Source: Chromera velia
Lineage: Eukaryota
NCBI GenBank assembly: GCA_018398765.1
Contig: JAHBMJ010000214.1
Location: 1-53,782, forward strand
Length of the DNA: 53,782 nucleotides
Direction: 5' to 3'
This document shows, piece by piece, positions 11,438-52,442 of the stretch. A model generated the notes under the pieces. The model did no database searches. It saw nothing but the letters and a program-made list of their open reading frames with translations, and was not told the origin of the DNA. The stretch's first letter is position 1. Every line of letters begins with the position of its first letter. The position numbers and the translations under genes were made by a program.

Positions 11438-12574
11438 TTAAAAAATAGTAAATAATAACTCACCCCCCATATTAATAGTTTGGGCATGCTGTCAATGGAT
11501 TAAGCCTTTGGACGATGATAAAATTACTAGACCAAAAGGGAATTTACGGTTTAAAGTGTGCAATTGCCGTGCTCGAACATGCGGGTGTTTAGTGATCGTA
11601 CTTAATTGTTTAATTTTTATATGGCTAAGGGTTTTTAAGGAAAATCGGGCATCAAATTCTATTACAATAAAACTTTTATGCTCACCCGTAAATCAAGTTA
11701 TTTCTCTCATAAATGGTCACTGCTTTAATATTTTCAATCATTGATAAGTTTTATATGTTGCAGGTAAGAAACAAAACCTTTGATGATTAATGAGTGAGTT
11801 TCTAAAGAGTGTACAAAAATTGGCTAAACTATCTTTAATCAAAGGATTTTGTTGACGCACTTTCGTGGTAATCAACGTGTGAATTTCCTCAGGCTCTTCT
11901 AACATCTGTTGCTTATCCAAGTATTGTTTCTTTTTACCGGAAAGTGGTGGCGATTTAGGAGGTCATAAAGAAGCCTCTCTTAATTTTCTTGCAAGAGAAA
12001 AATTGCGAAACGCAACGGAGGAAAGATCTCCAGTTGTTTTTTTGGTGGCTTTCACCTTATATTGTGTAAAAAAATAACTTGGAAACGAATATCGTGCAAA
12101 CGGTAAAAGAACTGGTAACCAAAAAGGCGAATCCTTAACAGTTATACATCGTTTCTGTATTTTCAGGTTCTTTTTGCTATTACGCTTGTGATAGGTTCGG
12201 TTTTGTAACGCTCAGAACATCGCTTGAGTTAAATAGGAAAATTCAGTCATGTATTTGCGATTCAAGAATCTGTAAGCAATTTGATACGCTCATAAGGGGT
12301 AAGCTAAGACAAAGCCTTCTCCTGCTGATGTTAATGACCGCACCCGACGTGCGGAAAAAGGTTGAAAACTTCTAAGATACCAACGCGAGCTCTTACGACT
12401 TAAAGAAGTATTAAGTTGTAGGCACGGATGTCTATATAAAGTTTTGGGGGTGCCTCCAGCCCCAAAATAGAAGCGCTTTCTTCTAGATCTCACGAATTTT
12501 CGCTTTTTCGACAAAAATTTTTTAAAGATGGGATTCTTTCTATAAAAAAGGGATGAGATACGAGGAAAAAACAT
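11438..12574 (-). CDS. rps8: Ribosomal protein S8 with about 245-aa basic N-terminal extension (378 aa)
   Basis: S8 core from IKDSLANFCTLFRNS to LSSSKGL..A....GGELLFTIF. ORFs 12290-12586 and 11738-11920 are one continuous frame with TGA=Trp. Confidence 0.85.
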
Positions 12575-13775: not shown

Positions 13776-14399
13776 TTAGAACATGAAGTTATTCATACAA
13801 TCCTTCCTTGCTGTTAGTTTTTGAAGCAAAAACTTATATCATTTATCGATATTAAGCTTATCAAATGTGTAATTGAGGTTGGAATGGGTTTGATTGTTAC
13901 GCGGAATCTTAACCCACTGCATTTTTCATTTTTCTCAAGGTTGCGCAACATCCATATAACGTGATTTAGATAAAAAAAATCTTAACTTAACATATCTAAG
14001 AGGTTGATAGCGCGCCAAATACCATAAATATCAAACGGGATATAATCCAAAGCCCGAAAAATAGCTGGCACTAAAATTGCGAAATCTATAACACAGTTTA
14101 ATTCGAATCAAACGTTTTTGAATCTTAGCTTGTGCACGTTTGATCCTATATTTCCTTTGCTTAGGGCAGGGATAAACATTACAAAATAAAATAAAATGTT
14201 TATACTTACTTTTAGGCCTAGTTTGCCGACCCAATACCACATCCCCAAAATTAACCTCTTGGCGTGGATCATGAATTAAAAATTTTCTATAGGTTATTCG
14301 AGATTTTAATAAAAATGGGTTTTTTATTTCATGAGGCATAAACAGTTTAAACGTATTAGGGGTGCTCTTTTTCAAGACAAACCCAATTTTCAAATACAT
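13776..14399 (-). CDS. rps17: Ribosomal protein S17 with about 125-aa C-terminal extension (207 aa)
   Basis: KFLIHDP..V..GDVV...TRPKSKYK S17 signature. Lies between rpl16 and rpl14. Open through TGA to TAA at 13776. Confidence 0.85.
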
Positions 14400-18121: not shown

Positions 18122-21100
18122 TTAATATTTTTGATGACTTTCAAATTGTGTACCGCTTATAACGCAAGCTTTAGCATCTTGAATTCAGTCAACCTGATTT
18201 CATAATGAGGCTTTTATTAACGTTGCTGTTACTAGTCGAGCACTATATCCCCCGAGAACCCCATTTGCCAAGAGAGTTATCCTCGACATTCCTAAAACTA
18301 AAGGGACTACAAAACAAAGTTTAAATCCTAACTCGCCATAACTACGATTGAGTACTTGAGCTTCAGCCGAGGTTAAAATATCTGTTAGTTCTAAATTGGT
18401 ATCGCCCGGATCAAGTACACGCACCACCGAACTCATTTTTCGCACTAAAAATTCATAGTGCATATAAGGTAAAAAAATTCCACTTCGTTTGTATTGATCA
18501 ACTAACGATTCCAAAATAATCGTCTGTAAATAATGTTGCGAATATTTAAGACTTATAAATAGTGTTGAAAAGTTATAGTGACTATAAAACCTTTTTATGA
18601 CCATGGTTTGAAAATTAAGTGTTTCTGGTACAATATTATCTCCACCTTTCACAATTTCGGTTGGGTTTGGGAGCAGTGTATCAAGATTAGATAGGTGACA
18701 AGGAAGCGTAAAATAATTTCATGTGATCGGTCTGCTAAACGAATCGTTAAAGTGCTCATTTTTTAATAGTGAAAGTCGAGACTCTTTATGAATACTTTTT
18801 TGATCCTGATGGTTTCAAACTCTTTCTGCTAGGTGTTTCTCTGCCACTTTACAAGCATAAACGACTTTTAAAGCTTTTGACATTGATGCTGACCCTTTAG
18901 GTAATGTTCTCAGAAACTTGTATATGGGTTTTATAAATTTAGAGTAAGCCTTGGGGGTTTTTCTGTTTAACGCAGGAAAAGTTTTATTATTATCAGTTCA
19001 ATACCCTTCAGAAACTCCCGTATGTCTCAAATTTTGAACAAAATTATTTAACTGCTTACATTCATGACTATGAGAAGACTTTTGTGTTAGTGGATAAAGG
19101 TTTCTTCACTTCAACAGATTATCTATCTGGACTCGTCGCTGGAACTTTAATATAGGATACGATATTCAATAACCTTCGCTAGTAATCTGCCCGTTGATAA
19201 AACTATGTTCGGGTCTTAACTGATTATAGGATAATAACAATGTTTTTTTATATAACTTGTTATCCTTATCTTTTCATACATACCTAGTATTGTAAAAACA
19301 AAAATGAGTTTTTAACCATAACTCTCAAATCTGGTACCTATGCAACATCACTAACTTAGGATAATATCAAGTAAAAGGTTTAGCAGTTAATGTTTTTAAC
19401 CAAGAAAATTCTATTGTATCTTCTCCAATTAGGAAATTTACTAACTTTGAACCATAGACAAAATCTAAAGGATTGTAAATTTTGTTTCATCTTTGAAGTT
19501 TATTTCAGAAGAGCCGATTCAGAGAGTAGGTTAATAAGTTTTTAATTTCACTTATAAGCGATTGCGAACAGCTGAGATTTTTTAATTTTACATACAGTTC
19601 AAACTTACTAAGATCTTTTCCTAGGTACCGCAAAGAAGCTCGCATCTGCCTAAGTTTTAAACGAATTTTAGGAAGGTTGCTTGGGTCAACTTGTTCTTGT
19701 AACCAGCCTAAGTAAGAATAACTTCGTTGAATTCGATTAGCTACATTATCAGCTTTTCTCGTGCGTAGATAAATTTTAACGTTCTCTCGTGGTTTTCGAT
19801 CTACAACTTGTTTTAAAAAATCACTTCCACTCAATGGTACTTTTTCTGCCGTGGGTGAAGCTACAACTATCTCGTTCTTAGGATTTTGATCTATGACCTT
19901 AGCAGGAGGACATATATTTAGGCTTGAGACTCCTGGGTTCGGCAGCTTTTCATGGACAATACTCTTGAATTGAACGCGAGTCGAAACAAAATTTCTTGCA
20001 TTTTTTGTTGTTGGGAGTTGTCGAGTAGAAAATAATTTGATCTTCTTGTTGTTTCTGTTTATACTAAACGTTTGTGATATAGTGTTTGGCTCATGTAACG
20101 TATCCGAAGCTCCTTTCCTTTGGTCTTGATTTTTGAAAGCGTGATAAAATTTCGACATTTTAGACGTAGATCTTTTTTCCGGAAGGAAACCCACTATGCG
20201 CTTCGCCTTAACTTCTAGTTGGTGACGTTTAGCTTTTAGCTTGTCAACCTGCTTCATTTTACGAACTTTGCTTCTAGTGACACCTTGAAATGCTCCCGAA
20301 GGTCAATTCTTAGAATCCTTTACAGTCCTTTTTAAAGACTTAAGCATTTCTTTACTGCGACCCTTCGGGAACATAAGATCTTTCGATAGCCTACTTTGGC
20401 CGACAAAATTATTTCAGGTCTGCGTTGGTTTCCGTGGAGTAGAGAATATTTTATTTTGACTGTTTAACGTCTCTTGACACCTTGAACTCCTTAGTAGTAT
20501 CACTTTACTTGTGTACTTCGGACCACTTACGACTTCTTTACAGTTTAATTTCTGGCCTGAAACTTGTGCCACTTTCTCAGATTTTCATCTCGAAAAGCTC
20601 TGTTTTGAGTTTTTATAACCTTTATCTTTTGGCAATATAAATTTACCCTTCGACAGCCCCAATTGCTGGGGAGTATAGTCTGACTTAGCGTTTATTTTAA
20701 AGGGCAATTTTTTCTTTTTTGTGGGTTTTCTTTTACGTTTAGCGATCCCAACTTTACTGTCACCATCAGATCTAGAAGACAAACCTTCCTTCCTTAAAGA
20801 CTTGCTAGAATTCAACTTTAGAACCATTTGTGAAGAGGCTTTGACATCAGGCTCCACAGGGCCGAAGGACTGTTTTGATCCGCCCTTGTCCTCATTATCG
20901 CCAGTCAACGAGATTCCTTCTTGCTCATGAACCCAAGGTATAAATAAATCTAAAAACTGTCTAAAACTTTGTGTATTTATTAAGAGGTGAATCTTTCCAG
21001 ATTCATCTTTCTGCAAATGCTTATACTTTAATGGAAGACTTCACATAGCATTTTTTAGGACGAGTTTATATCTTTGATAGTCAGGGATTTCAGGCCAGCA

Positions 21101-24100
21101 AGACGTTTTGTGGGGAGTTGAAAATAAAAACCCTACCGTAGTGCTGAAAGATTTCAAAATAAACGAGTCGTGAACGATTTTATCATTTCAGATTTTAGGG
21201 CATACTAATTTTTTTATTCCCGAAGGTTTTAATAAAAGAGCTAATTGAAGACTGTTTTTGAATATACTACTACTTTTTTGGACCTTGAGTTGATTAGGCG
21301 TAAAGATACTAAGTCAAAGAGGAAGTGCTTCTGGTGAAACAGTCCATATATGGGGGCATCAGTCTGTCACTAAGCCAGTAACATCTGTCACTATAGACTC
21401 GGTACGGCTTTGCCGGGCTTCTACTACATTATCCATGTAACGTAAACCAGCGATTATATCAAAAGTTTTTTCGGGAGCGTCATAAGAAAAGTAATGCTTA
21501 TTGTGATTCCCACCTTCCCAAGGTATATAAGCTAAATAAGGTCAGTTACTTGGAAATGTTCAGGTTTTTAATGCTTTTAAGAAAGATCCTTGATTTTTAA
21601 CAAGTTTGCGTAACCCAGGAGAGCTTGCACTATTAAAATTAGCAACCCATCCGTATATATAAGTTTGAAAAATACCTTCATTTTCTCAAGAAGTTCACAT
21701 TAGTTTAGGAGAAAAGGTTAATTGAGGGTAAATTGACTTTTTATCGCAGTCCTTTTTCATTAAGTGTTGTCACGTGGGCTGCATATTTTGAGGCAGACCT
21801 TTCTCACACTGGCAAAGTTTTGGTACCACTTGTATAATTTTAAAATAATTCATATTTTGAATGCGTTCATTACTTCGGCTTGGTGTCGCTAAGCCTAATC
21901 AAATCTTAGCCTCTATAATAGTTAAGGGTTCCATATAATCACAATTTTGAGGAATGGATAAACGGTTCCCCGAATCTCCCATTACTAAACCCCCTGGACT
22001 AAATTTCCGCAGTTGGAATCTTTGAGTTAAACTATTGAAGGTGTAAGTTCTTGATTCTTTACTTTGCGATGTTCCCATACACCAGGTACCGGGCGTCATA
22101 CGGCGATAGTTTGCGCAAATAGACATTGGTACCTGATGCCCGAGAAAAAGTAGACCTTCAGGCTCCTCCGAGGTTCATCGATTAGAACCCTTAGTTTCAA
22201 TTGATTGTTGATTAACATTGGATATCGCTTCCGGTATGATTTCACTTTGCGATTGCACTCACAACCAAAACCATTTATGAAAAGCAAATGTTCACGAATT
22301 AAATATTTTTTTGCGGTAACTTAAAGTCAAATTATTTCGGTAGTGTAAACTATGGAGTCTAAAATTTAAAGATGAATGACCGTCCAAAATACACCAGGGT
22401 TTCTTTGTAGTGATCTTTAAAGGCGTTAAGATGTTTTCTGACCTTTGGGTGAAAAGATCAGACGTTGAGAGCTTCAAATAATTATAATAATAGAAAAGAT
22501 ACGCCAATGGGAATCAACCGACATTACGTTTAATTGACACGAAGTGTGAAGCCCAAGCCTTATGGTAGGGTCTTTGTTTAAAAGGATTTAAAGCATTAAT
22601 TGTTCCTTGCTTAAAACTTAAGCGTTTAGAAGACTTTTGTCTAAAAATCTCATAAGACAATGTTCAAGAACTAGCATAATAAAATTCTCAACTGAGCCCT
22701 GTTGTACGATCTGGTAAGTATAAGTGCTTGTCTTCCTGGCCAATTTGAAACGCGTTATTTAAAGTAATGCCTCTATATGCGTGACGTTTATTAGACCCGT
22801 CCACGAGATTTTTAAATGTAACATTAATCAGATGCGCACACGTTTTAGCATTACTCGTATTTTTGATTAAACCTGCTAAATTAGGGACGAAAAGTAATTC
22901 TTTGGGATAGGTCGTAAGACCCCCTTCCAAAATTCCATAGCGTTTTCAAAACACTCCTGGTTTTGAGAGTATACTTAAGCATATATTCTCGAATTTAATG
23001 GCTTGTGACTGAGTTGCTTCTAAATGTGTCTCGCCAAAAAGTTGGTCACTATGATAAGTCAAATTCCAGGCACGGAGCGAAGGGCTACTTGGCACACTAT
23101 GGGTAGTCATCAGACGACTTTGCGTAGAGACCCCTATGCCCCATCCTTTTGGTCAATAAGGTAAAGGGCCTGTTACTGATCCTTTTTCCACATCAGACAG
23201 GGAAATAAAAGCACCGTATTCATTTGTCAGAGTTAAATATAAGTTACTAGGACGCACCTTAAATTGTAACCTACTTAACCAGTCAGGAATCCGTGGATCG
23301 AAAGACGAGGAGGGGAGTCTAACAAGGAGATCTAAAAATCTTTGGAGCCATTGTGTGGTTACAGACGCAATATAAGCTCTTTTCTTTTTATACTTAAATG
23401 ATAGAGAATTATTAGCTGGCCAAATGTTATGCTGGGTATATGGAGTTCTTGTATCGGTTTGCTCCAAACCTAATAAATCAAATATTTCTTCTTTGAGCAC
23501 AACACCCCCACTATGAAATGTTCTCAGAACCATTTGAGTACAAGGTTCTCCCACACTTTGCCCAGCTAAAATCCCAATGTTCGTCGTAATCCGGTGGAGT
23601 TGGTCTTTACTTTTGAAACATAAGCCACAGCAAGCTTGACACAAATTAGTAAATCCTCAACATGTCAACGGAGATTTAACATCCAAAAATTCAGCATAGA
23701 GCAATTGCTTTAAAACCAACTTGGTATTCATACGATTTAAAACCGTGTTTCGGCTACAAAGAATTTGGCCGGTTTTTTTATGCATTATAGAGTTAGTTAT
23801 TAGTTTACCGTATAAAAGTAAAAAATCTAATGGCCTACAACTTCCTTGAATCCGGTTTCCTGCTGAAACTTTTAAATAAAAGCGACTGAAACACTGTTCT
23901 TCTTTAATCTTAAAATTATAACTAACTTCTATAAATCGCCTAGTCAAATAGCCTGCGTCCGCTGTTCTTAACCCCGTATCGACAACACCTTTACGGGCCC
24001 CATAAGAGGCTAAAAAGTATTCGAAAGGTTGAATTCCCTCATAAAAGTTATCCATTACCGGTAAACTTCCAATAATCCCTCGAGCATTAGCTGTAAATCC

Positions 24101-24538
24101 TCTAAAGTCAATAATTTGTCGAAGTTGTAAAGGGGTTCCACGGGCCCCCGTCTTTGACATTAAATTAATAGAGGAAGGAAGAATATGTTCTCAACTCGTA
24201 ATATTAAGTAAATTCTTTAAAAATTCTGTACGATCCTCGTAGAAGTTCTGCATATAATAGGCCATATAATCGTGACTGCTTTTGTAACCCTTAATCCCTA
24301 ATAGTAATCCACGATTCGGATCTGTACTTAATGTATCTTCGATTAATTTAGCCCCAATCGATACTTCTAAATCATCTAAATTTATTGAAACAAGATCGCG
24401 TGTACTGTATTCAAACCCCAAAGACATCATATCCTGTAAGTATTGTGGAGCACTTTCTTCCCCCCCGTAATGTTTTAAAAGTAAAATTAAATTTTCTACA
24501 TGCTGTTTGGCTTTTAGATTATTCATAAGTAAAATCAT
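18122..24538 (-). CDS. rpoC2: RNA polymerase beta'' subunit (about 2138 aa, large insertions)
   Basis: TGARG, YGARKGVVDTGLRTADAGYLTRR, CQACCG, AGQSVGEPCTQMVLRTFHSGG, DIIAGL...EAR, VDWIQDAKACVISG. The TGA-bounded ORFs share one frame; most but not all gaps were read through. Confidence 0.92.
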
Positions 24539-24625
24539 CGACTAAAAAATATTATTTTCAAATGACTTTCTTACAGAAATGCTTGTTTTGACAAAAATGT
24601 TCTATCAAGGCGTCACTAAGAATAT

Positions 24626-27600
24626 TTAACAAAGATTAATTATAAAACTATTCCTTCAATTAGGACCAGGAAATCGTTTTCAAACCACAGATGAACTAAT
24701 AATTTCATATGGCGTAAAGCCCGACGAAGATTCTCTCTGTAGATTATGGAGATGAGGCACAGTAGCTTTTATTTTAAACTTTTGAAGTTTTTTTCAAAAG
24801 AGCTGTGTATAGATATACTTCACTAATTCTTTATTTAAATAAATATTTTTTAAAATATGGTTTAATGAAGCACGGTAGGGAGCCACCCGGACAGTATCAT
24901 AGATACTACAGACGAGATTTGGCGCATAAGTCATACAATTGTTTACTAAGATATGTTTCTGTGTAATTAATTTGCGGGCTGCTAAAATAGACGGGGCAAA
25001 ACCGAGCCTATAAATTAAACTATCTAAACGAAGTTCTAATTTGGCTAATAATTTTAATTTAAAATTAGCTTTAACACTATCTCGGCGACGAAGGTAATTT
25101 TTTAATTGATGATCGGTTAGATTATAGTAAAATTGAATTTTTTGTTTTAACTTTAACCGATGCAGAAAAAGTTCTTTTAATTTTAACCCTCAACCTGTAT
25201 CATAAATTAACCGATAGGGAAAACAACTTAATCAGCGTAAAAATCCTAACGGATGAATTAATCCCCGCTTAAAATTAGAGTAAAAAACTAACAGTTTACA
25301 TTTTAACTGATATAATCCTTTAATCCCATTTCGTCAACGTCGTGTTTTCTCATCAGTATGTTGCCCAGGGAGCATAGGCACCCGAAAAGGGCTTGGTATA
25401 GAAGGTTGCTTTAACTTAAGGGAGGACAATTGATTATATTTATACATTTTAGCTCACAGTTGACTAATACTATGCCTGTAGATGTGATAAAATACTTGTA
25501 GCCAACGCCTCATTTTCTGCTCAATAAAAAAACTTGTCCCATTCAAAGGTTTTGACAACAACATCAAACTTTCGGGTTTTGCTGTTAGATGTAAAGGGGC
25601 AAGAAGATCTTTCATTTCATACATCATTGGTTTATTTTTGACAGTTAGTCTAGAAGCCGTTTGGTCTAGAATAGCTAAACGCTCTGCTAGCGGAGACTTC
25701 GTATTCACCACGGGGTAAACTTCCAACCGCGGTTGGGTTAGTGTCTCACAAGAAGGCCTCAAAACTAAATGGTGTACCGGACTCCGCTCTTTGGAAACAC
25801 GCCCATTTCCTACACTATCTAAAAATCTAAAATACCTGTACAAACGTAGATTCTGCTGCCTTTTATATTTAATTTTTTGTGAATTAAGTCAACGATAAAA
25901 AGTAATTTTTTCTTTACACACATAATTCCTTTTCGTCATCTTTATAAAACTAGGAAAAACCGAAATTCAAAGCCTTCGCCCCGGAAAAAACATGTTGCGA
26001 TAACTCAAGGAAGTTTCTGTTCTCGGCACTTTTAAAAGTTTACCAGGGCGCTTATACAATTTTGTACCATCTCTCCTCATTAAATCTCCTCAGACAATTC
26101 TAGACCTGTGTGATGGGCGCTTTGGGAGCCGTGGACGTTTAATCGGCACCTGAAAAATCCCTCGTATACTTCGAGCCCGGCCATGGTGATTTAGTCAGAA
26201 TCGGTTACAATAATATAAAATCAATTTAGCCTGTATTAAATTACGGCTGCGGCAAAATCGAAACTGCGAAGAAAGCTTAGGGATAGGTAGGTCTCAATTA
26301 TGGTATGTTGTTGGGGTCTCGAATTTGTTGAGTCTATAAAGATTCGTGTGGTTAAAATAGAATCTGGGTTCGACGACCTGAGATGAATTCGAAAGCATAT
26401 TTCGACCGGCCTCGAAAAGTAGACGACCTCCAGGAAAAAAGCCATCTTCTTTTCTTACGTAATTGAAAAAGGGTTCTGAATTAGAAAATATAAGTCGCTC
26501 CCGTCCGCATGTGTTAAGGTCGGAAAATTGAGCTATAAAAGTCTTCAAATGCTTGACTGTTCTTCGCAGCACTTGTGATCTTATGAGTGACCCATAGTTG
26601 CTTTCCGAGTTTTTAACTCTAAAAAAGACTTGGCGAGCTACTCGTGATACTTTGTTATTCTGTAACGTCAGATCTAAAACGCCAGAGGATATAAAATCAG
26701 AATTTAATGCATAAAATGTTTTTGCTTTTGCCTGGTAAAAATTGAAAGGAAACGATACTAAACCAATAAAACCACCTCGGTAACGAAATACATTATCAAA
26801 AGTTTTAGTGAGACGATTAACGCTACTCAATATTTTTCCGGATCCAAAGGTGGCAGGCACTCTCTCTATGCACGGAATTTGAAATTTAGTACCTCTGCCC
26901 AAAGACTTGACTCGGTATTTGTTAGCAAACCGAATCTTATTTCAGTAACTAAAAAAGGATAAATCCCGCGTTGTAATACCACCAACTTTTGTTTGGAACT
27001 CCGGTTTTTCTCTACTTTCACACAACGTTTTCTGCGTTTCTTTTCAAGTCTGCAATCAGGAAACTAAAAGTAGATCATCACACAATTGAGGACAAAGCCC
27101 CTGTTTTACTATTTGTAACTGCCAAGTTTTACTTCATAGGTGAGATCATTTCTTAATAAACAAATGTTTCATAAATAAATTAGTCCCTAAAGGTAAAAAA
27201 GGTAGTTGTCGATCCAAATTCTGTTTCTTGTATTTAGAAATACCATGTTGAAAAATGAGGTTTAAATCATGGGCTTTAGATTTACGAGCCGGGTAATGGC
27301 TAAACTTTCGCTGCCAGAAAAAAAACCATGGGCATTTCGGATAAACTTTAGTCTGAAGAGCTTGAAAAATCTTTTGTGGCGTTATTCGCGTTCGTTGAAT
27401 CGGCTTATACTCGACATCTACCATTAAAGTAACCTCTCGGGATAGCCGCTTTCATTTTTTTCACTTAGGTATATCAACCTCATCAAATCTATAATCATAG
27501 AGGGATTTATAAACCGGGTCATAAAGGAGCGTATTTTTATATCTTAAACCAAGATATAAGGATCGGTCAATATCTGCTCAAAAGTTATGTAAGAATTTTT

Positions 27601-30600
27601 GCGGTCGTCACGTTTGAACTCGTGAAGGAAATTCGGACCGTGCCAGTTGTAATAAGTTTGCGTTTGAAAGATGGACTAGGTTGTTTCATTTACGCTGACT
27701 GAGCACAGCAGGTTTACGCGGCGCTTTATACCATCAGTTGGGCATATAAATTTTAGGTCCTTCCAGTCAAAGACTTTTGTTTGTTATCTTTCGAAGAATA
27801 TTCTGAGGGATAGGTTTTCTTGGGTTGATCGGTCAGAAGCGATGAAATCATCAACGTTTCTGCCAAGCTTTATCATCCATTGAATTAACGACTGGTAGTT
27901 CATACATAACTCGAGGTGATATGTGTTTTCATGTTAATAAAGTACTAACATCGTTGGTCTTTCGCCTTACTCGTGAATCAAATCATTGCCCTTGAAATCT
28001 AGGTCCAGGCCAAATTTGGTTTTTACCTTTGATCTGCAACGCCAACGTCATATAGAGTGAATAAGGATCGAAAAGTAACCGGGGCTTATAAACTACCGCC
28101 GAATTCAAAGGTAAACTGGAATCTGCCTTATATGTACTATGAAATAGGATTGGTACAACTGAGGATTTTAACCTGTCCACTTTTCATAGGCTGGAAGTTT
28201 CTGCATCATAGAAATTACCCACTGACTTACGGATCAGGGATTCCCTAGAGTTCATCTTTCGCCTTTTGAAGCTACTCTTATTGGGATTGGTCCGTAATCT
28301 CAGTTTTTCATTTTGAGCAAATCAACTATTTGATTTTAGTATACTATCCAAGACTGGTTGTAAGGATTGAAGAAAACTGTGGAAAGCCTCAAGTCCGTTT
28401 GGAATATATTCTTCTCTCAAAACACAGCCAAGCCTTTTTTTGTTCTTATGCAAGTACTCACGACAGTATATGTCTTTACTATTAAATTTTTTTCAAGTCC
28501 AAAGGACTTTTTGAAGTTTAATAATTTCTCTCTTAACGTTCGGGGTGTAGAAAGATGAGTGCCCAAAACGGCTGGAAAGTCAGGATTTACGACGACTAAT
28601 TTCTCTTTTGACATCTTCCATTAAGTCGCTAATTACTTGGAACCTATGCCAAATATCTTCCATAGGTATAGTATGAGCTTTTAAATTGAAAGGCACAACA
28701 TATCGGTCAGTCATAGAGAATGGTAGTACAACGTGCTTATAAAGATCTATGAGGTAAGCTTTTTGGGGTTTCGATCAATTACGCCAAAATTTCTGAATGT
28801 CCTTAATTCTTCATTTCATAATTAGCTTGTCTTCCTTTTCAAGGAATGAATTCGCTCAGAGCTGTAAGGGACGAGAGTTTCATACTGATCTCTTAAACTT
28901 AGTAGTTTGAGGAGTTTCAAATTCTAATACTTGGTAGGGATAATTTACCGTGTTTCTCATTTGTTTTATGAAGCCTCCAAATCCATACTTCGATTTCTTA
29001 TTGTTAGATATAAATGAGGCAAGCGGAGGCTTATGTATTATTCTTCTTTTCTTTTGCGGTTTTTTGTCCATTTTAAGAAATTTCTTTTCATAGAACTCAC
29101 TCACTCGGTTAATTTTTTCCTGCACTTGCGCTCGAAGTCAATAAAATGAGCTATAGCGCACGTTTTTTCAGTTTTTATTATTTCAGACAGAACGAGCATA
29201 TAGTGATTTATAAAGACTACCTACTTTATGGCTATAATTTTTAAGCAAAGTTCCATAATTTTTTGATGCCGTATTCTTAAGCATTTCTGTATATTCAATA
29301 TTGAGCTCATTAATCTGATGTCCCGGCTTTAATCAATTTTTAGAAAACTTACGCTTCCAATTTTGTCGACGTTTGGAAAACGAACGCTTCAAATGCGTTC
29401 GTCGGTCGAGGACGTAATGATGTGAAGTTTTTGATCTTTTTTGTGGAGAACTATTGTAAGTGTGCAGTAATGTATAAAAAGATCCTACATTATAAATGTA
29501 GTTTTGAAATATTAATGCTTTAATAAGACCAGTCAGTTTTGTTAAAATAAGCCGTGCCATTAATTTCTTGTATAAACGAGGAGCTCTTAGTTTCAGTACT
29601 TTAGAGTTAGCATAGTAAGCCTTGAGTTTGTTAATTGACTGTCCAATACTGAATTTTGGCGAACTATTTATTAGGCATGTTTTTTGAGAGGCCCCGCGAT
29701 AAATTTTTCAGAGATTATACGCGGAAACATTTGCTTGTGAATTTACAAATGTATAATAACGAGGGAGTGTAGGAATATCACGATTGAGTTTCCGATCACA
29801 CATAAACCCATAATTTCTTCCTTTAAAATACTGCGCCGACTTTTTACTATCACATAAAAATTTCGGGAACTGCAGTGTTTGTTTCTTTATAGACCGAAGA
29901 GCAGCTTTTAAACGCTGAAATCTCTTAATCAACTTAATGAATCTTAGGGTTCGTGAGAAGATTATCTGACTCTGGAAAGTCCCCTTACATAGCATCCACT
30001 TTGCGATAGTTTGAGGTAGTATTCACTCGCGCGTATTGTACTTACGCTTGTATAAATATTTTGTAAAGTTGTTATAATTTCTTAAAATTAAAACAGCCTC
30101 CCTATCACCACAGAAGGACGACAAAGTTTGAGCTCCAAAAAATTCTAAATTGTTTGGACGAAGTGTAAAACTCATTAGGGAAGTTTTAACCGCGCTTAAA
30201 TGAATCGAGCGTCGTAAAACTTTAAATAGACGATATTTTATAACGTTATTGATAAAGCTCATTTTATTCGGAAATGTGTAATAACTTTCAAGACCTTGTG
30301 TTTTATGACATCAAGTCTGGGGGCGCAATAGTGGTCCCATAATCTCCTGACGACGTATAGGTGAAGTTTGAGGTAATCGCTTAGATCAAGGAACAGTAAT
30401 TTTTTTTAAAGCTTTTATATTACGTCTATAAATTCTTAACATTGTTAAGCATTCGGGAATGGAAAGTGTTTTTAATCGTTTCCATAGCGCTTGCCAGGCA
30501 AATCTATAATCATATCTTGTTGTAGAAGGGTAACTGTAGATTTTTCCTTGGGCATCGTCAAATGGGTCAGGTCCCACAGGTCCTATGTTAACGGCAATAT

Positions 30601-30844
30601 GACTTATGGAGTAACTACGCAAAACCCAGAAATAAGCTTGTATTCGTTCTCGAAGTTTGCGTATCCTAAGCTTTTCTGGTAAACGCTTAAAGGGAAATTG
30701 CTTTCAGTGTCTTACAACTTTGGGGGTACCTCCAGGTAATAAAGTAAGATGTAACTTTCGTAAAGTTTTTATTACACTTTTATAAGTGTTTTTAGAAGAT
30801 CTTCGGGCAAATTGTTTTTTCTTTACAAATTTTTTAGAGGGTAT
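24626..30844 (-). CDS. rps4: Giant ribosomal protein S4 (2072-aa frame, probable ATA start)
   Basis: N-terminal KTLRKLHLTLLPGGT (cf. RIVRRLG.LPGLT) near 30750. PGQH near 25365, then RLKLKQKIQFYYNL and LELRLDSLIYRLGFAPSILAARKLITQKHILVN. The intervening frame has no TAA/TAG. Confidence 0.88.
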
Positions 30845-31503
30845 ACTTTAATTTAGCTACGTAAAGTCTCTTAAGAAAACAATAAGTCGACAAACATACA
30901 ACAAACTTTGACCAACTTCTTGATTACAAGCGACTTCAAGTATTGCAAAAATGTCCCATTTTATTTTTAATGCTTTTTTCTACGTATTCAGCATGTAAGC
31001 TCTTAGAAAATGTTTTGTTGCTATCATTTCTTTTTTTAGCCATTTGTTTATAACTACTTTTTAAAAAAGATAATTTTCTTTCATTCAATTTTTGCTGAAC
31101 CTAACATGGATATTACCCCTTTTAAATAGACCTACAAGAAACCTCGCAATCAACTTTACATAATTATCAAGGTTTAAGAAGTAGCTTTACGTAAAGACGG
31201 GAAGTAAAATAAAATGGCCACTCACTACTACGGTTAAAGTAACTTCATATCTGTCCTCCCTCCTGTAACTCAGTCTACTTGGGTTGCAAACATAAACCTA
31301 CGAATCACAAACTGTTACGTTATCGACCAATTTATAAGAGCAAATTTAAGCTATAAGATTGACGCGATTGGTTGTTAAAAAGAGAAACAGCTAAACGTAG
31401 CTCTTCACTCGTTGAGTTCCGCCTTAATTGCTAAGTCAAAAAATTTTGCCTTTGATTAAATATCAGATACGCTCTAGTAATTGGCTAGTCAAAGGTTCGA
31501 CTA

Positions 31504-31740
31504 GGGAATGTGGTGAAATCGGTAAACACAACGGACTTTTCTTCCCAGCGAGATATTAGCACTCAAGCTTACGAACTAATAAAAACTAATGTAACACACG
31601 TGAGAGCGGCTTATCCCCGGAAGAGCAAGAGACTTAAAAGCTTTATACTACAAAATAGGCCTCCAAGTCCTTTTTATTTCGCACTTATGAAAATCCGTTG
31701 GCTTTTAAAAGCCTTGAGGATTCAAGTTCCTCCATTCCTA
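31504..31740 (+). tRNA. trnL: tRNA-Leu(UAA), exons 31504-31538 and 31690-31740
   Basis: GGGAATG/CATTCCT acceptor. ACGGA-CT T^AA AA-TCCGT anticodon arm is interrupted at the canonical U^AA site. Confidence 0.93.
31539..31689 (+). other. Degenerate group I intron of trnL(UAA), 151 nt
   Basis: Follows an exon U and ends in G. Remnants of the R (GCAAGAGACTT) and S (AAGTCC) core elements. Confidence 0.85.
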
Positions 31741-31766
31741 CATTTAGTTTCTTCAGCACATATAAA

Positions 31767-31840
31767 GCACTCTTAGTTTAAGTGGTGAAAACATAGATTT
31801 TCAAAATCTAGTATTAAGGGTTCGAGTCCTTTAGAGTGCG
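31767..31840 (+). tRNA. trnW: tRNA-Trp(UCA), UGA-decoding
   Basis: GCACTCT/AGAGTGC-G acceptor typical of plastid trnW. Perfect TAGAT-TT TCA AA-ATCTA anticodon arm. Ordinary 74-nt size, not tRNA-Sec-like. Confidence 0.92.
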
Positions 31841-31843
31841 TTA

Positions 31844-31916
31844 GGGAGTATAGCTTAGTTGGTAGAGTATAGCTTTTGCAAAGCTATGGTCCGGAGTTCA
31901 AATCTCCGTGCTTCCA
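31844..31916 (+). tRNA. trnA: tRNA-Ala(UGC)
   Basis: G3:U70 pair, TAGCT-TT TGC AA-AGCTA. Confidence 0.93.
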
Positions 31917-31934
31917 ACTCAAAGTATAAGGGCT

Positions 31935-32255
31935 ATGCACCTAAAAAGGGATCTTTTTCAACGCAAACTTTTCATGTTTAGCGGGGCTTCATGACCGTCT
32001 GTTAAACAACAAAAGAACAAATGTCTATATCATTTACCCGAGCCCTTAACAACACGCTAAGACCAAAAAAGAAGTGTTCGGCAGTAATGGCAAGTGCGAT
32101 GGAATTTCATCCTAGACAATAACTCTCGTCGTAAGTGGCCTGCTCATAATTTTTTAACATATTCCAAGTTCTTTTACATAATGAAAGTCATAGCTTTTAC
32201 AATGAATACTTTTCATTGAAGAATTTTTAATACGCGATTATTAGAGATTTTTTAG
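31935..32255 (+). pseudogene. rpl20: rpl20-like frame interrupted by two in-frame TAA
   Basis: MHLKR..FSGAS...VKQQKNKCLYH...R*DQKRSVRQ*WQVRWN...LTYSKFFYIMK is collinear with L20 (FRGAH, ANQQVMKAL, KKRDFRRLWITRIN, LNYSKFI). Stops at 32058 and 32085. Confidence 0.5.
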
Positions 32256-35844: not shown

Positions 35845-36025
35845 GTAAGCAAATTCCCTAACGACAAAAGAAAAAAGAAAGATACCGTGGAGACTGGCTT
35901 ACTAACTTTCTCCGTAACATGGTCATTTTTTGTTTCCTATGGTAAGCAAATTCCCTAACGATAAAAGAAAAAAGAAAGATACCGTGGAGACTGGCTTACT
36001 ACCTTTCTCCGTAACATGGTCATTT
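35845..36025. repeat. Direct repeat, 2 x 84 nt, period 97 nt, 2 mismatches
   Basis: 35845-35928 and 35942-36025 both read GTAAGCAAATTCCCTAACGA...CGTAACATGGTCATTT. Confidence 0.95.
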
Positions 36026-37714: not shown

Positions 37715-37756
37715 AGTTATTTAATACGTATATTCTAGGCAAAGCCTTTTAAGAAA

Positions 37757-40700: not shown

Positions 40701-42022
40701 CTCAAAAAAATTATGAATTAGCTTTAGGCATAAACACTCGAGTTTGTTATGGTGTTTATTATGGTTATACTTTTGAAGATGCTATCCTGTTAAACAGTAC
40801 ATGTATACAAAAGCATATGTTTACGAGTCTTCAGTTGTATGAAAAAAAATTATTGTTAGGTAATCTCTCTCATACCTCTTTAATGTCTTTATTACTCCCT
40901 CAAGAAAGTCTTATAAACGTATCTTCACACGGAATGTTAAAACCAAATTCGTTAATTTATCCTTCTCAGCTACTTATAAGTAAAATTGAGGATACGCGCC
41001 CCAACTTCTTAACTGAAAAATCGTGAAAAACCGTACCAAAACATTACCATAAAATTGATTCATATATTTATGATCAACAACGAGAATTCTTTGAGAATGC
41101 TTCGATATACGCCTTAGAATCGGATCAAGGTAGGCTTATCTCTTTATCACATTGACAAGATGGTTGATTACAAGAACCTCAGATTACTTTTTTAGTAGGA
41201 CATTTAATGCTGATGCAGTTAGGTGATAAAGTGTGTGGTAAGCATGGCAATAAAGGCATTGTTTCGGCTCTGTTGGATACCCCTGATATGCCATATTTAG
41301 AAGACGGAACCTCTCCAGACATGATTGTTAGTGCTTTAGGGGTTCCTTCTCGAATGAATATCGGACAGTTGTATGAATGTATTTTAGGATTGACGGCTGA
41401 ATGATTAAATAGTCGCTTGAAATATAGCCAAGACGATAAATTATTTTGCGGCGAACAATATTTAAGGGAAAACATATATAATTTAATGAAACAAGTGGCT
41501 CTTTTTACAAATAACGCTTGATTTTATAATCCTTATAATCCTGGTAAAATATTACTTCGGGAAGGGGCATCAGGGCAGTTAATTCAGGGCGGGGTGTTTT
41601 ATGGCATGACTTATTTATTTAAGTTAATCCATATGGTAGAAAAAAAAATTCATACGCGTCCTGTCGGTCCTTATACCCTGATTACGCAACAGCCACCACG
41701 TGGTCGTCGCCAGGAGGGAGGTCAAAGATTAGGAGAGATGGAAGTCTGAGCAATTCAAGCTTTTTCTGCAAGTTACACTCTAAAAGAACTACTAGTCCTA
41801 AAATCAGATGATCTATTTTATAGACAACAAATTCATGATCGCTTAGTTTCAGCTGAAAAACTTAGTTTTGGCTATTCCGAAACTTTCAAATTGTTAATCC
41901 GAGATTTAAATATTCTCGGCGTAGGTGTCTCCTTTAATTTGCCACATACAAGTTGTCAACCGCTCCTCGATGGAGACATAACTAAACAAATTTTTGATGT
42001 ATTTGAAACAAGTGTTAGTTAA
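37757..42022 (+). CDS. rpoB: RNA polymerase beta subunit (about 1421 aa, GTG start)
   Basis: [72 protein letters not shown]. One frame through TGA codons. Confidence 0.95.
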
Positions 42023-42152
42023 AAATAAACTGTGAAAAATGGCGTTCGTACTGGACCAATTGTTCGAACAATCTAATATGACGTTTATGTGCAGGAGCAA
42101 GTTGTTCGTTAACTTGAAGAATGGATTCATGCTTTTGTAAAAGCCTAGATAT

Positions 42153-45100: not shown

Positions 45101-46205
45101 AACTTTATACAATAACTTATTTTTACAAGAGAGTATTAATTTTTTATTTAACCACTTCGGGCCACGTAGTTCATGAAATTCGTCGAGATGACGGCCTTCA
45201 AAAGGATTAGTTCTTTTAAAACAATACCAAGGTAAATATGGACGGTTTCGATTTAATTTATTAGGCAAACGAATTGATTATTCCGCGCGTTCAGTGATTA
45301 CTTCAGGATCTGGTTTACCCTTTTCTTATTGTACAATACCATTACAAATGGGCTTTAAATTGTTGGAACCTATGTGGGTAAATCGCATGTTAGAATTTTG
45401 TTTAGTCCAAGAAGAAAATTTAGAGGAAGGATATGTCGATCCATCCTTGTTAAGTGAGCAGGACAATTGAGACGACCTTCAAGTCTATGACGACCTTTTA
45501 GACGAAGACGAAACCTCAGAGGAAATAAATTTAGAACAATCATTGGTTGCCAACGAACAAATGTTATGACCAGAAACCCTTTCACGAAACTTACTTCAGG
45601 AGTTAATTCAAAATCGATTAATTTTAATTAATAGGGCCCCTACGCTACACCGAATGAATTTTCAAGCTTTTCACGGCTTACCAAATTTGGCTCGCAATTT
45701 GGGGTTTTATCCTGTTGCATGTAGTTCATTCAATGCGGATTTTGATGGAGATCAAACTGCTATCTTTATGCCTTTATCTTTTGAAGTACTCTCAGAAGCT
45801 TACCATATCTTGCAGTTTAAACAAAATTTAATTTCGCCAGCCACTCAAAAATTACTTGGAAATGCCTCCCAAGATATAGTACTAGGAATGGTAAGTTTAA
45901 ATTCACCTAATGAAACACGCTATAAATCGTTAAGCCTATATTTTAGTAATTGAAATGACTTTAAAACCACGGCAAATCATGGCTTATTACCCTTACAATC
46001 GAAATCGTGAGTACGCATTATGTATAACTGTTTAACTCTGTCCAAAACCATCAATTATCAACACCTATTTTTACAAGATTTGTCGCTATATTATACATGA
46101 AACACCTGACAATGGAGGCTGAAGACTCATCAGTTGTCTCCAGATTGAAACAATTTATGAACAACATATTTGTACATACCACCCACTAACGCGTTAGAAT
46201 TTTAA
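42153..46205 (+). CDS. rpoC1: RNA polymerase beta' subunit (about 1350 aa; start uncertain, non-ATG)
   Basis: LSPSKVLAWS, GLYSEQIFGP...C.C...CPIC, LPVLPPGLRP, GRFRFNLLGKRIDYS, NRAPTLHR, catalytic FNADFDGDQ. Confidence 0.93.
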
Positions 46206-46374: not shown

Positions 46375-47145
46375 ATGTCTCGATTTAGATTTCTGCGGGA
46401 TCCGGTTTGTGCTCTGTCTCCACTGGATCGTGAAGAAATTTTTTTATTTCGCAATCGGCCAACCTTCGTTTTGTTTAATGTGTTTAATAATTATGGTGGA
46501 TTAAAAACTAGACGTGAGACTCGCTTTTCATGAGCACAACAGAAAAAATTACGGAGGGCGGTTTTGAGGCATCGTCTATGTGCAGCATTACCATTTAGAT
46601 CTTTGAAACAAATTCAAGCAGACCAGGTAATTGCTTGTCGCCCTGAAACTCAACAAAGTGTGAGTTTAACCTCCACGCCATTTAGATTAAAAGAAGAATG
46701 AGAACAATTAAAAAAAACTTATCAAGAAGAAGCTGCCAAAAAGGAAGCACAAGCTGCATTAGACGAGTTGGCTGAAGGGGCCGTTCAACAAGTCGAAGTT
46801 AGTTCAAATTCTGAGCAAAATACAAATATAAATCGCAAGTCTTCTGTTATATCTGAAGTCTCTCCCGATCCCGGGGTAGTTACTTCCTCGCAAAGAAAGG
46901 TTCCTGGAAAAAGGAAATTTCCACCTAAAGAGCAGTTCAATCAAACTTCGCTAACAAACGTGACTCCGCCAAAAAAATTGTCGCACAAAATGACGGGATC
47001 CATTGAGGTTAGTGGAAAAAATATGCCTCTAGAAAAAAAGACGACACCATTACGAAAAGCCAAGCTTTGAAAACGCAAAGTATTTAAACGAAAGATATTT
47101 AAGTCTAAATTGAAAAATCCGAAAGCGTCAAAGAATAATAACTAA
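46375..47145 (+). CDS. rps18: Ribosomal protein S18 with long C-terminal extension (256 aa)
   Basis: VFNNYGGLKTRRETRFSWAQQKKLRRAVLRHRLCAALPF matches S18 (GKILSRR.T....QQR....AIK.AR..LLPF). Frame continues into ORF 46768-47070 and ends at TAA 47143. Confidence 0.82.
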
Positions 47146-47504: not shown

Positions 47505-49196
47505 ATGTCAATACCTTCCGATTTTGAACGTAACCAGTGATCAAACCTGCCCAACCGCAAAGCATCTTCACGACACAAAAAGGTTAGAGATAATCGTCCT
47601 ACTACCTCTAAAACTACTAATTTTAGTGTTTCCCAGAAACCTTTGGGTAAGCAAATACCAGAATCGAGGACGGTAGAAGGTCCATTTAAGAAGCGGAAAC
47701 CTTATAAATGAAAGAGCAAAAGGTCTGAAGTGAGAACAGCTGATACAAAGGCTTCTTCTTTGGGTTTAACATCGTTCAAACTAACAAAAACAAGGAACTT
47801 TAAGACACTGTCGGGGCAAAAAGGACCAGAATTGAGGACGGCTGACGTCCCATTTAAGAAGCTTAAACCTTATACACCAAAGAGCAAAATTTCTGAAGAT
47901 AGACCAATGGATAAAAAGGCTTTTTCGTCCGTGGCCGCACCGTGAAAACCAACCAAAACTATGACCTATAAGGTCTCTAAGAAACTTTTCGGGAAAAAAG
48001 GGCCAGAATTGAGAATGGTCGACGTCCCATTTAAGAAGCCTAAACCTTATAAATCCACGAGCAAAATCTCCGAAGGAAGACCAATAGATAAACCTTCGGG
48101 GGCGACATCGGTCAAACTAAACAAAACTAAGAATTTTACTGTCTCTGAGACCATATTAAGTCAACAAAGATCAGAATTGCCCGCGTTAAAAAGCCCAGAG
48201 AAGAAGGAGGAAAGGTATGAACCAAAGAGCAAAATTTCGGAAGGTAGACCAAATGATCAAACAACGGCTTCAGCGGGTAATTCATCTTTAAAATCCACAA
48301 AAAATATGAAAATTGACGTGCGCGGCGCAAAAAAAAAGAAATCCTGGGATCATGTTAGTCGAATGATTCAAATGTATAAATCTACCGTGTGACGCCCAAC
48401 GCCTAAAGAGTTATATAAAACGAATTATTTTACGGATTTTTTTGATGCGTATCCTGCCTTTAGACGAATTTTAAAACAGGATCAAATGGCAATCATTATT
48501 TTATACTTTCAACTGTCAAGAAAGAATACTAAGATTAGTATAATTCAGTCTAATGAAGCGATTCACTTAAAAGTTATTCGAACCATTGATGCTACCACTC
48601 CTTTGTATGGAGAGGTAGCAGTTTTTAATTTAGAAAAACGATTAGAAGGACTAAGATTTTTACCTCAGACGGTCAGCTTTAATGAATTATATATTCAAAA
48701 ATATGCTATTTTAGCAAAGCTAAAAACCTTTATCACTTATTATTCGCAAAAATGAGCAAGTGAAACGTTTTTAAACTGAAGTCATCCAAAGACATACTAT
48801 TTTTTACATAAGTATAACGTACCATATGATTATTTAAAAACGTTTAATTTTGACGATTTAACACAAGCATTTCGTTTACCAAAAAGAAAATTTGTTCGAC
48901 GTTATGAACGATTACTAACCTGTTTTACTGCTGGAATGCTACGTTTAGTAGGTAAACGCCGGAGTACCCCTTTTGCTGCAAGAGAAATTACATCTAAGGC
49001 TATTCGTTATATACGAAAACATGATTTTGTTTATGTAAGAGTCTTTTTTCGTGGAGTTTCAGCTAATCGAACTTACATTATTAGGACTTTATTTTCGACA
49101 AGTTATTTTGGATCAGCTTTAAAAATTCTATCTTTAGCGGATATTACTTCCGCTCCTTATAACGGCTGTCGTCCAAAAAAATATCGTCGCCGGTAA
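47505..49196 (+). CDS. rps11: Ribosomal protein S11 with repeat-containing N-terminal extension and internal insertion (563 aa)
   Basis: ILYFQLSRKNTKISI, TAGMLRLVGKRRSTPFAA, DITSAPYNGCRPKKYRRR. Four track ORFs share one frame joined by TGA. Confidence 0.88.
47605..48310 (+). repeat. Four degenerate coding tandem repeats of about 55-60 aa within rps11
   Basis: Consensus KT.NF.VS...G...PELR..D.PFKK.KPY..KSKISE.RP.D recurs four times. DNA-level similarity includes CCATTTAAGAAGC in three copies. Confidence 0.9.
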
Positions 49197-51113: not shown

Positions 51114-52442
51114 ATACCACGCGTCTATAAAAAATGAACGTTTGTCCATAAAATTTTTTATGATTTACGTCTTTTCACTAAAGAGAACGAAGGTCGTATT
51201 TTACTAACAGGAAAATTAAATTATTTTATGGTTAATCGGATACAGCGTCGAGGATGCAACTCGTTGGCTCGGAAAATTTGAAGTAAAACTTTATTAAAAG
51301 TAGAAAAACAGTTAAACCGGTCTATTAAAGATATTCTAGAAGAGATCTTTAGATTTTTAATTCCTCCAGTTGGAATTACTTTTCTTAAAAAAGCTAACCA
51401 AGTGACAGAATTACCTGTTATACAGCCTTATTATCGAGCGGTTCCTATGGCTATAAATTGAATTTTAGAGGCTGCAAGAAAAAAGAGGGGTGTGAAATTT
51501 GTAAATGCTTTAGTAACAGAGTTTGTGGACCTGTATAATTTTACTGGTGCGGCTAGTTCACAAAGAAATAAATATCTACGTCGAAGTCTAGCTGCAGAAG
51601 AAAACTTTCATCTACTTTATAGATTACCAAGACGTCGGTTACCTACTCAACCAGCTGTTGTAAAAAGGGATACAGTAACCTCAGAAGAGACAAGTAGCAT
51701 AGATTCATCTTACGCTGTAAAACTATCGACGCGCAAGTCTTCTACTTTCTTCCCTGTTCCACGAGCTAAAAGTTTTTCCAAAGAACAACTGAAAAAACAA
51801 AAAGTATTTTATAAAATTCAAGAAAATCGAAGATATAAGTATGGTGGACGATTTTATTGATTAAAGAAATTATACAGGTCATTTCAAAAACTTGTACCGT
51901 ATTCTGTCTTACTATTGATATGACATAGAACCTTGGTTCGAGAATATAGGTTATTTACACCTGAATTGTTAAGCACTTTATTTCTTAGTTCGAGCCAGAC
52001 GTTGGGATATTTTTGAAATTTATATTTTTGGCAAAGTCAGACACTTTTTACGGCTGTCGAGACTACAGCCCTACTATTTCCGGACCGGAAAAAAAAAAGA
52101 AGAGTTAACTGTGCTTCTGTACCTGGCCCTTTGCGGCCGCACATTTCACAATCTGGATCACGGTCGCTAAAATCTTTTATGTTCAAGCAAAAAAAACCTA
52201 GGAATCAAGGTAGAAAAGCTTCGCATATAGAAGATTTAAAAAAAATAGCTGTAGAAAAACCTCCGGTAACAAAAGGAATACCTTTAACAGAAGGAGTTAA
52301 ACTAAACATCATGAGAAGGTTACGTTGGACAAAAGACTCGAAGTCGTTAATCCTTAGAAAAACTGCAACGCCAAAGCCTAAGCGACCTAAACTCCAAAAA
52401 ATACTTCGGTCTACAAGCCGACACCATAAGAAGGATCGATAA
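51114..52442 (+). CDS. rps7: Ribosomal protein S7 with about 285-aa C-terminal extension (442 aa, probable ATA start)
   Basis: MVNRIQRRG..SLARKI, AINW(TGA)ILEAARKKRG, AEENF. Follows rps12. Frame continuous to TAA 52440. Confidence 0.87.

What the first reader, a model, noticed from the sequence alone, without database searches (positions are those of the whole stretch)
24626..30844. 2,072-aa Rps4: a single insertion of about 1,780 aa inside a 200-aa ribosomal protein
Seen: one 6.2-kb frame with no TAA/TAG in AT-rich DNA. It has the S4 N-terminal motif (LRKL..LLPGGT) at about 30750 and the adjacent PGQH plus S4 domain at 25370-24626. Known: uS4 is about 200 aa and these motifs are normally within about 15 residues. 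Inference: a frame this long must be under selection. The Lys/Arg/Trp-rich insert is either a huge RNA-binding ribosomal appendage, a captured gene, or a segment removed from the RNA or protein. I saw no intein ends or LAGLIDADG/RT motifs.
Basis: partly seen in the sequence, partly recalled or inferred. Interest (0 to 1): 0.85.

Follow-up and report, generated by a model that had tools for sequence, protein, structure and literature searches.

The report
Giant ribosomal protein S4, Chromera plastid
This is the already annotated rps4 gene in the chloroplast of the alga Chromera velia, ten times the normal length because of about 1,800 extra amino acids; six other small-subunit ribosomal proteins here are also enlarged, so they likely build an oversized arm on the ribosome, as green algae do.

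Summary
The frame is real: 2,072 codons without TAA/TAG, where TGA = Trp, and identical in two independent-looking assemblies that may include the window's source. The window is the Chromera velia plastid genome. The ORF is its annotated rps4: the published rps4 primer lies inside the insert, and a 1,998-aa version is in the databases. The uS4 core (aa 1893-2012) and the PGQH motif are solid. The N-terminal S4 motif is plausible but only marginally significant. There is a second insert of about 50 aa, so 'single insertion' is inexact. The large insert has no homolog, domain, intein, intron or repeat signature, and is very basic. A second strain keeps the frame open, but amino-acid constraint is not shown (omega about 0.64, CI 0.29-1.47). 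Seven small-subunit proteins in the window carry about 3,940 extra residues; five large-subunit proteins carry 78. Giant Rps4 is known in green algae (insert over 2,500 codons, at another site), and Chlamydomonas builds a ribosomal arm from such extensions. Best reading: a convergent, translated, weakly constrained ribosomal appendage; protein-level proof is lacking.

The parts
24626..30844 (-). rps4 ORF, 2,072 aa from ATA (table 4), 248 kDa, pI 10.5, net charge +276; database protein P0002 (1,998 aa) starts 74 codons later
30719..30778 (-). Candidate uS4 N-terminal motif, aa 23-42; weakly supported
   Evidence: best site; not significant; no Pfam or NCBIfam S4 hit
25385..30718 (-). Large insert, aa 43-1820 (1,778 aa): K+R 19%, D+E 6%; no homolog, domain, repeat or clear transmembrane segment; holds the published C. 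velia rps4 primer site (27949-27965)
25355..25384 (-). PGQH motif of uS4, aa 1821-1830
25169..25354 (-). Linker aa 1831-1892 containing a second insert of about 50 aa, predicted helical
24809..25168 (-). uS4 core, aa 1893-2012 = TIGR01017 positions 45-164; confident model matching chloroplast uS4c at about 2 A rmsd
24629..24808 (-). Divergent C-terminal 60 aa, outside the profile match
31767..31840 (+). tRNA with anticodon TCA (labelled SeC by ARAGORN), the likely Trp reader of the 46 TGA codons
15038..18112 (-). rps3, 1,024 aa (+812); neighbour of uS4 at the mRNA entry
11438..12574 (-). rps8, 378 aa (+247)
13776..14399 (-). rps17, 207 aa (+135)
46375..47145 (+). rps18, 256 aa (+181); identified by the published primer and weak PDB hits
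47505..49196 (+). rps11, 563 aa (+443)
51228..52442 (+). rps7, 404 aa (+250)

Best explanation
This is the Chromera velia plastid rps4 gene, whose uS4 core sits behind about 1,800 extra, strongly basic residues; it is likely translated as one roughly 248-kDa protein whose insert would loop out beside the mRNA entry and, with six other enlarged small-subunit proteins, likely forms an oversized arm on the ribosome. Shown: gene identity, open frame, code, uS4 fold of the core, basic composition, small-subunit-specific enlargement, open frame in a second strain. Inferred: translation starts at the far 5' end (near codon 1, non-ATG); the insert stays in the mature protein; it lies in the variable loop between the N-terminal motif and PGQH; it binds rRNA or mRNA and the other extensions. 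Inferred origin: in-frame growth under weak amino-acid constraint, with the frame held open because any stop would remove the essential core.
For: Identity: 6 of 6 C. velia primers from PMC3894158 Table S1 that I searched match the window exactly, the rps4 one inside the insert. Core: TIGR01017 E 6e-22, best PDB hit Chlamydomonas uS4c; model pLDDT about 90 over the core, Foldseek rmsd 2.1 A to spinach uS4c. An internal start near the core (Met at 1778, 1800, 1824) would leave the upstream 1,780 codons free to gain stops, yet there are 0 against 57-135 in the other five frames. Second strain (X6, X8): 0 stops among the 35 listed changes in the ORF, no indel or joint listed, and two contigs cross the 5' junction. 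Composition is like ribosomal proteins: K+R 18.9%, D+E 5.9%, basic in all 14 blocks. Pattern: +3,943 aa over 8 small-subunit proteins (7 enlarged) against +78 over 5 large-subunit proteins. The same loop takes inserts elsewhere: 51 aa spacing in one of 29 homologs, about 85 in P0044. Published RNA coverage of rps4 is 562, against rps3 359, rpl14 421, rps7 625. Precedent: Chlamydomonas arm built from uS2c +666, uS3c +497, uS4c +97, uS5c +512.
Against: No protein-level evidence was found or could be produced. omega about 0.64 (CI 0.29-1.47), P(syn >= 11) = 0.125, P(0 stops) = 0.31 under neutrality, from 31 changes only: function of the insert sequence is not shown. The N-terminal motif fails or is marginal in several tests, so 'insertion' versus 'N-terminal extension' is not settled. 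No ATG before codon 135. The single-sequence model of aa 1-1200 is uninformative (pLDDT 34.7). Synonymous codon usage does not single out the frame (0.78 in frame, 0.78 in one antisense frame). RNA polymerase subunits are enlarged too, which fits general relaxed growth as well as a dedicated arm. RNA coverage could come from precursors.
Confidence: 0.6

Rival explanations
1. Translated in one piece, then cut by a protease: the insert is trimmed or released and a shorter (possibly two-piece) uS4 remains on the ribosome.
For: Weak sequence constraint; no confident fold; this genome tolerates split proteins (psaA, atpB). Cleavage of the insert in Chlamydomonas plastid ClpP is recalled, from no call.
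Against: No intein-type motif or family; the comparable Chlamydomonas ribosomal extensions are retained in the structure; the insert is uniformly basic like a ribosomal extension.
Confidence: 0.17
2. Not an insertion but an N-terminal extension or fusion: an unrelated orphan ORF ran into a normal-length rps4 whose old start lies near Met1800, and the N-terminal motif is chance.
For: MAFFT aligns the homologs' N-terminus with aa 1801-1830 when given only the C-terminal 272 aa; the motif at aa 23-42 is not significant; the genome has large orphan ORFs (orf1173, orf634).
Against: The site at aa 23-42 outscores the Met1800 site (7.2 vs 2.8) and is the best in the protein (10.1 vs 3.3; 9 of 200 shuffles); 20 of 95 homolog N-termini align best within aa 1-49 (homologs are not independent); it lies at the very start of the frame, where it is expected. 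The product would still be one giant protein.
Confidence: 0.13
3. The insert is removed from the RNA as an unrecognised intron or by an unusual splicing event.
For: The flanks would rejoin to near-normal spacing; the 3' junction was not seen bridged in the listed pieces of the possible RNA runs.
Against: No Rfam intron model at gathering or E <= 5; no RT, LAGLIDADG, HNH or GIY-YIG pattern; an intron would not keep 1,778 codons in frame with both exons; no joint; equally large insert-bearing rps3, rpoC1 and rpoC2 show the same style.
Confidence: 0.05
4. A captured foreign gene with its own enzymatic function sits inside rps4.
For: Length alone; omega point estimate below 1.
Against: No hit among 5.8 billion clusters at near or shorter lengths, none to aa 873-1830 among the best 150 hits of a search of 1.84 billion representatives, none in Pfam or PDB; GC by codon position and TGA use match the other expanded genes.
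Confidence: 0.05

Closest known systems
Chromera velia plastid rps4 (annotated; database protein P0002, 1,998 aa, in UniRef and NCBI nr)
   Same: Same gene: 100% identical over its length; named rps4 with a primer inside the insert in PMC3894158.
   Different: The database protein starts at codon 75 (TTG) and so lacks the candidate N-terminal S4 motif; the frame is open for 74 more codons.
Giant Rps4 of OCC-clade Chlorophyceae (Floydiella, Stigeoclonium, Oedogonium; PMC2997540) and the 1,550-aa P0158
   Same: Plastid rps4 enlarged by an in-frame insert of thousands of codons, of unknown nature, not repeat-derived, in genomes where rps3 and rpo genes are also enlarged.
   Different: There the insert (over 2,500 codons) precedes the last 40 codons; here it lies in the N-terminal loop, ahead of the core. 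No homology between P0158 and this protein outside the core. Green primary plastid versus secondary plastid: independent origin (inference).
Chlamydomonas chlororibosome small-subunit arm (bioRxiv 10.64898/2026.02.07.704542; PDB 9TVU, 28JW)
   Same: Plastid-encoded extensions confined largely to small-subunit proteins, retained in the ribosome; the uS4c and uS3c extensions at the mRNA entry are positively charged.
   Different: 1,772 extra residues in uS2c/3c/4c/5c, only 97 in uS4c and C-terminal; here about 3,940 in uS3/4/7/8/11/17/18 within this window alone, 1,872 in uS4. That arm is reported as restricted to Chlorophyceae. No structure seen for Chromera.

Membership tests
Ribosomal protein uS4 (uS4c) | S4 RNA-binding domain plus preceding helical domain (PF01479, PF00163 / TIGR01017) | tested here: met
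   PF01479 above cut-off; TIGR01017 positions 45-164, E 6e-22, though below the whole-protein cut-off; fold match
Ribosomal protein uS4 (uS4c) | PGQH motif before the core | tested here: met
   best site aa 1825-1830; 1 of 200 and 2 of 100 shuffles; spacing to core 74 vs 20-34
Ribosomal protein uS4 (uS4c) | N-terminal RRLG..LPG segment | tested here: inconclusive
   top site (9 of 200; 14 of 500; 134 of 150 shuffles reach it); not significant; no HMM family hit
Ribosomal protein uS4 (uS4c) | Conserved C-terminal about 35 residues | tested here: not met
   profile match ends at position 164-168 of 200-202; tail diverged in alignment. Loss of this part is also reported for Chlamydomonas rps4
Ribosomal protein uS4 (uS4c) | Incorporated in the 30S subunit | not testable with these tools
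   needs proteomics or cryo-EM
OCC-type giant chlorophycean Rps4 | Insert immediately before the last 40 codons | tested here: not met
   the extra sequence precedes the core
OCC-type giant chlorophycean Rps4 | Homology of the insert | tested here: inconclusive
   none with P0158; the Floydiella, Stigeoclonium and Oedogonium proteins themselves were not fetched
Chlamydomonas-type SSU arm | Extensions concentrated in small-subunit proteins and positively charged | tested here: met
   (8 small-subunit and 5 large-subunit proteins of this window; S12 left out because its start is unclear)
Chlamydomonas-type SSU arm | Extensions retained and forming density at the mRNA channel | not testable with these tools
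   needs cryo-EM
Intein | Hint domain, terminal His-Asn followed by Cys/Ser/Thr | tested here: not met
   no Pfam hit; no H[NQ][CST] anywhere in the protein
Group I / group II intron with ORF | Intron RNA model; RT, LAGLIDADG, HNH or GIY-YIG ORF; spliced joint | tested here: not met
   Rfam; patterns; no joint; contigs show presence, not absence

The most novel reading that the evidence does not exclude
Chromera's plastid small ribosomal subunit carries a plastid-encoded appendage of at least 3,900 residues, more than twice the Chlamydomonas arm and evolved independently in a secondary plastid, built around a 1,780-aa loop-out in uS4 whose true non-ATG start lies 74 codons upstream of the database annotation; it controls mRNA entry in a plastid with poly(U)-tailed messages.
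Probability: 0.35. Interest if true: 0.7.

Novelty: new variant of a known kind. Interest (0 to 1): 0.4.

Why it matters
The Chlamydomonas structure paper ends by predicting more elaboration in secondary-plastid algae, still unexplored. Chromera is a cultured, cryo-EM-tractable alga (its photosystem I structure is) and a photosynthetic relative of apicomplexans. The sequence predicts where the extra mass is: uS4 and uS3 at the mRNA entry. One ribosome preparation would decide whether kilo-residue inserts in plastid ribosomal proteins are kept and ordered, kept and floppy, or cut away, a question left open for the green-algal giants. The gene itself is not new, and longer Rps4 inserts are in print.

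Tried and rejected
No whole genome is held, so genes outside the window (rps2, rRNAs) were not examined. No RNA holder listed; X6, X8, X11, X12 are only guessed to be RNA, so I use X6 and X8 as second-strain sequence and do not rank depth; X12 laid nothing and X11 one unrelated-looking contig. Uncovered bins in X5, X6, X7, X8 are not used. The metagenome scan gave one mitochondrial-type rps4 locus, L001. Internal duplication: no blastp/phmmer hit below E 0.08 elsewhere in the window; no long repeats. AlphaFold of aa 1-1200 without alignment failed, so no fold search was run on it; aa 1201-1800 were not folded. Promoter scan: 2 found, 2.7 expected. The protein atlas did not complete. Earlier scan findings: none. 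No complex prediction was run. The two C. velia plastid genome papers were not held and may already describe the long rps4. Eight Chromera searches were read as listings; passages of four listed papers say nothing on rps4 size.
Full report
1. The observation. Under table 4 the minus strand holds one frame, 24626-30847, of 2,073 codons with no TAA/TAG and 46 TGA. Under table 11 it breaks into pieces of at most 215 aa. TGA reads Trp: all 5 TGA of petB sit at Trp of cytochrome b6, and a tRNA with anticodon TCA lies next door. The insert has 0 stops in frame and 57-135 in each other frame; the chance of an open frame is about 1e-41, and 300 shuffles gave at most 217 open codons. Runs X1 and X3 each cover 23500-32000 in one contig with no difference, but either may be the window's source; a sediment metagenome (X5) holds near-identical pieces in 29 of 30 bins.

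2. What genome. The window carries atpA, petB, secA, secY, rpo and ribosomal genes. Six of six Chromera velia primers that I took from PMC3894158 Table S1 match exactly (rps4, rpoC2, rps14, secA, rps3, rps18). The rps4 primer anneals at 27949-27965, inside the insert, so those authors treated the whole frame as rps4. A 1,998-aa protein identical to aa 75-2072 is in UniRef and NCBI nr. The gene is known. Their Table S3 lists mean RNA coverage 562 for rps4, like rps3 (359), rpl14 (421) and rps7 (625), and Table S2 lists no poly(U) site for it.

3. Anatomy. The uS4 core is aa 1893-2012, matching profile positions 45-164. The best PDB hits are Chlamydomonas and spinach uS4c. A model built on 52 sequences is confident over the core and matches uS4 at about 2 A. 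PGQH (aa 1826) is the best site for its motif (1 of 200, 2 of 100 shuffles). It lies 74 aa before KQK, against 20-34 in 53 homologs, so a second insert of about 50 aa exists. LPG-to-PGQH is 14-51, median 15, in 29 homologs and 1,790 here; P0044 has about 85, counted by eye, so this loop accepts inserts.

4. Is the N-terminal motif real? All tests: no Pfam or NCBIfam S4 hit on the first 80-100 aa. A profile from 79 bacterial proteins scores it low (shuffle p 0.32; 25 of 87 insert windows score as high). With 95 of the 149 non-self hits (those with an N-terminal segment of 40-100 aa), a local HMM ranks it behind a site at aa 303 and not above shuffles, while 20 of 95 N-termini align best within aa 1-49. 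An 18-column profile makes aa 23-42 the best site (10.1 vs 3.3; 9 of 200 shuffles), and the first 50 aa rank 1 of 74 windows (14 of 500 shuffles; aa 11-60: 29 of 500). A 24-column gapped profile again ranks it first (7.2; next 6.3; Met1800 alternative 2.8) but 134 of 150 shuffles reach that score. It is usually top-ranked and sits where expected, yet significance is marginal; I put it at about 70%. If real, the database start at codon 75 is too late. The first in-frame ATG is codon 135, so the start would be non-ATG.

5. The insert. No homolog: self only among 2,975 near-length candidates, 0 of 6,402 shorter ones, and every one of the 149 non-self hits listed for aa 873-2072 matches only the S4 core region (best 150 of 1,358 shown; longest 570 aa). 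Pfam on five pieces covering the insert gave two hits, at E 0.014 and 0.026, both below cut-off. There is no intein, RT, LAGLIDADG, HNH or GIY-YIG pattern, no Rfam intron, no long repeat or duplication within the window. It is basic throughout (K+R 18.9%, D+E 5.9%), Trp-rich like rps3 and rpoC1, with GC 0.41/0.38/0.32 by codon position like the other genes, and one 19-residue window of hydropathy 1.6. AlphaFold without an alignment gave pLDDT 34.7 for aa 1-1200.

6. Selection. Runs X6 and X8 (one study; RNA is only a guess) differ from the window by about 1.6% (52 in 3,316 nt of the 8 listed X6 pieces), with all change types and no strand bias, so I read them as another strain rather than editing (inference). 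No indel or joint is listed, and two contigs cross the 5' junction. Of 117 differences 40 were shown, 35 in this ORF: 33 codons, 11 synonymous, 22 nonsynonymous, 0 stop. After dropping 4 clustered changes, 31 remain: 11/20/0 against 7.7/22.1/1.1 expected; omega about 0.64, CI 0.29-1.47. The frame is maintained; constraint on residues is not demonstrated.

7. Context. Against family profile lengths, S3 is +812, S4 +1,872, S7 +250, S8 +247, S11 +443, S17 +135, S18 +181 and S14 +3: 3,943 in all. L5, L6, L11, L14 and L16 total +78 (S12 omitted). All are net positive. RpoC1 (1,354 aa stop to stop, profile about 620) and RpoC2 (2,134, profile 1,230-1,338) are enlarged as well. So rps4 is the extreme of a genome-wide trend that, among ribosomal proteins, is confined to the small subunit.

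8. Mechanism. uS3, uS4 and uS5 line the mRNA entry (established knowledge). Most likely (0.6) the whole frame is translated, the core binds 16S rRNA as usual, and the basic insert loops out on the solvent side with the uS3 extension to make a large arm. The open frame needs no function of the insert: a stop anywhere would remove the core. Rivals: proteolytic removal (0.17), N-terminal fusion rather than insertion (0.13), RNA splicing (0.05), captured enzyme gene (0.05).

9. Comparison. PMC2997540 (passages and the first part of section 19 read) reports an rps4 insert of more than 2,500 codons before the last 40 codons in OCC chlorophyceans, of unknown nature. A cluster look-up also gave a 1,550-aa S4 with a C-terminal extension, P0158, resembling Chlamydomonas uS4c in its core and unrelated to this insert. 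bioRxiv 10.64898/2026.02.07.704542 (parts 1-3 of 4 read; supplements not seen) shows such extensions retained as a small-subunit arm around the mRNA channel. This gene works like those but belongs to neither by descent: different site, no homology. PMC3894158 was seen as passages and supplement rows. The 2010 and 2013 genome papers were seen only as references and may mention the size; I cannot claim it is undescribed.

10. Verdict. A real, annotated, giant uS4 in a secondary plastid: a convergent variant of a known phenomenon. Interest 0.4.

Noticed in passing
window 15172-15200 and 21016-21108: One 473-nt contig present in runs X6, X8 and X11 joins 29 nt of rps3 to 93 nt of rpoC2 between unrelated flanks; looks like a mosaic of plastid DNA in another genome compartment.
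   Followed up: no
P0158 (1,550 aa, ENA contig of 7,312 nt; not in the window): A second giant plastid-type Rps4 with about 1,370 aa after the core, chlorophycean-like; may be partial.
   Followed up: partly
window 47505-48300 (rps11 N-terminal extension): The extension contains recurring peptide units (about three copies of a KKxKPYxxKSKISExRP-like stretch), unlike the repeat-free rps4 insert; seen by eye.
   Followed up: no
window 29331-29334 and 29388-29392: In the second strain adjacent Trp-Leu codons are swapped to Leu-Trp, and four changes cluster within five bases nearby.
   Followed up: no
window 37739-42022, 42141-46205, 173-1870: rpoB, rpoC1 and atpA frames show no ATG near the 5' end of their open frames, so non-ATG starts may be common here.
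   Followed up: no
window 6-79, 52915-52988, 53426-53499: Three tRNA-Lys(TTT) copies with identical Rfam scores at the two ends of the window.
   Followed up: no
window 35845-36025: A 97-bp unit in 1.9 tandem copies, 97% alike, just upstream of rps14.
   Followed up: no
window 4109-5311 and 6981-8042: Two orphan ORFs of 400 and 353 codons stop to stop with no Pfam family; by size probably the published orf389 and orf325, not checked.
   Followed up: no
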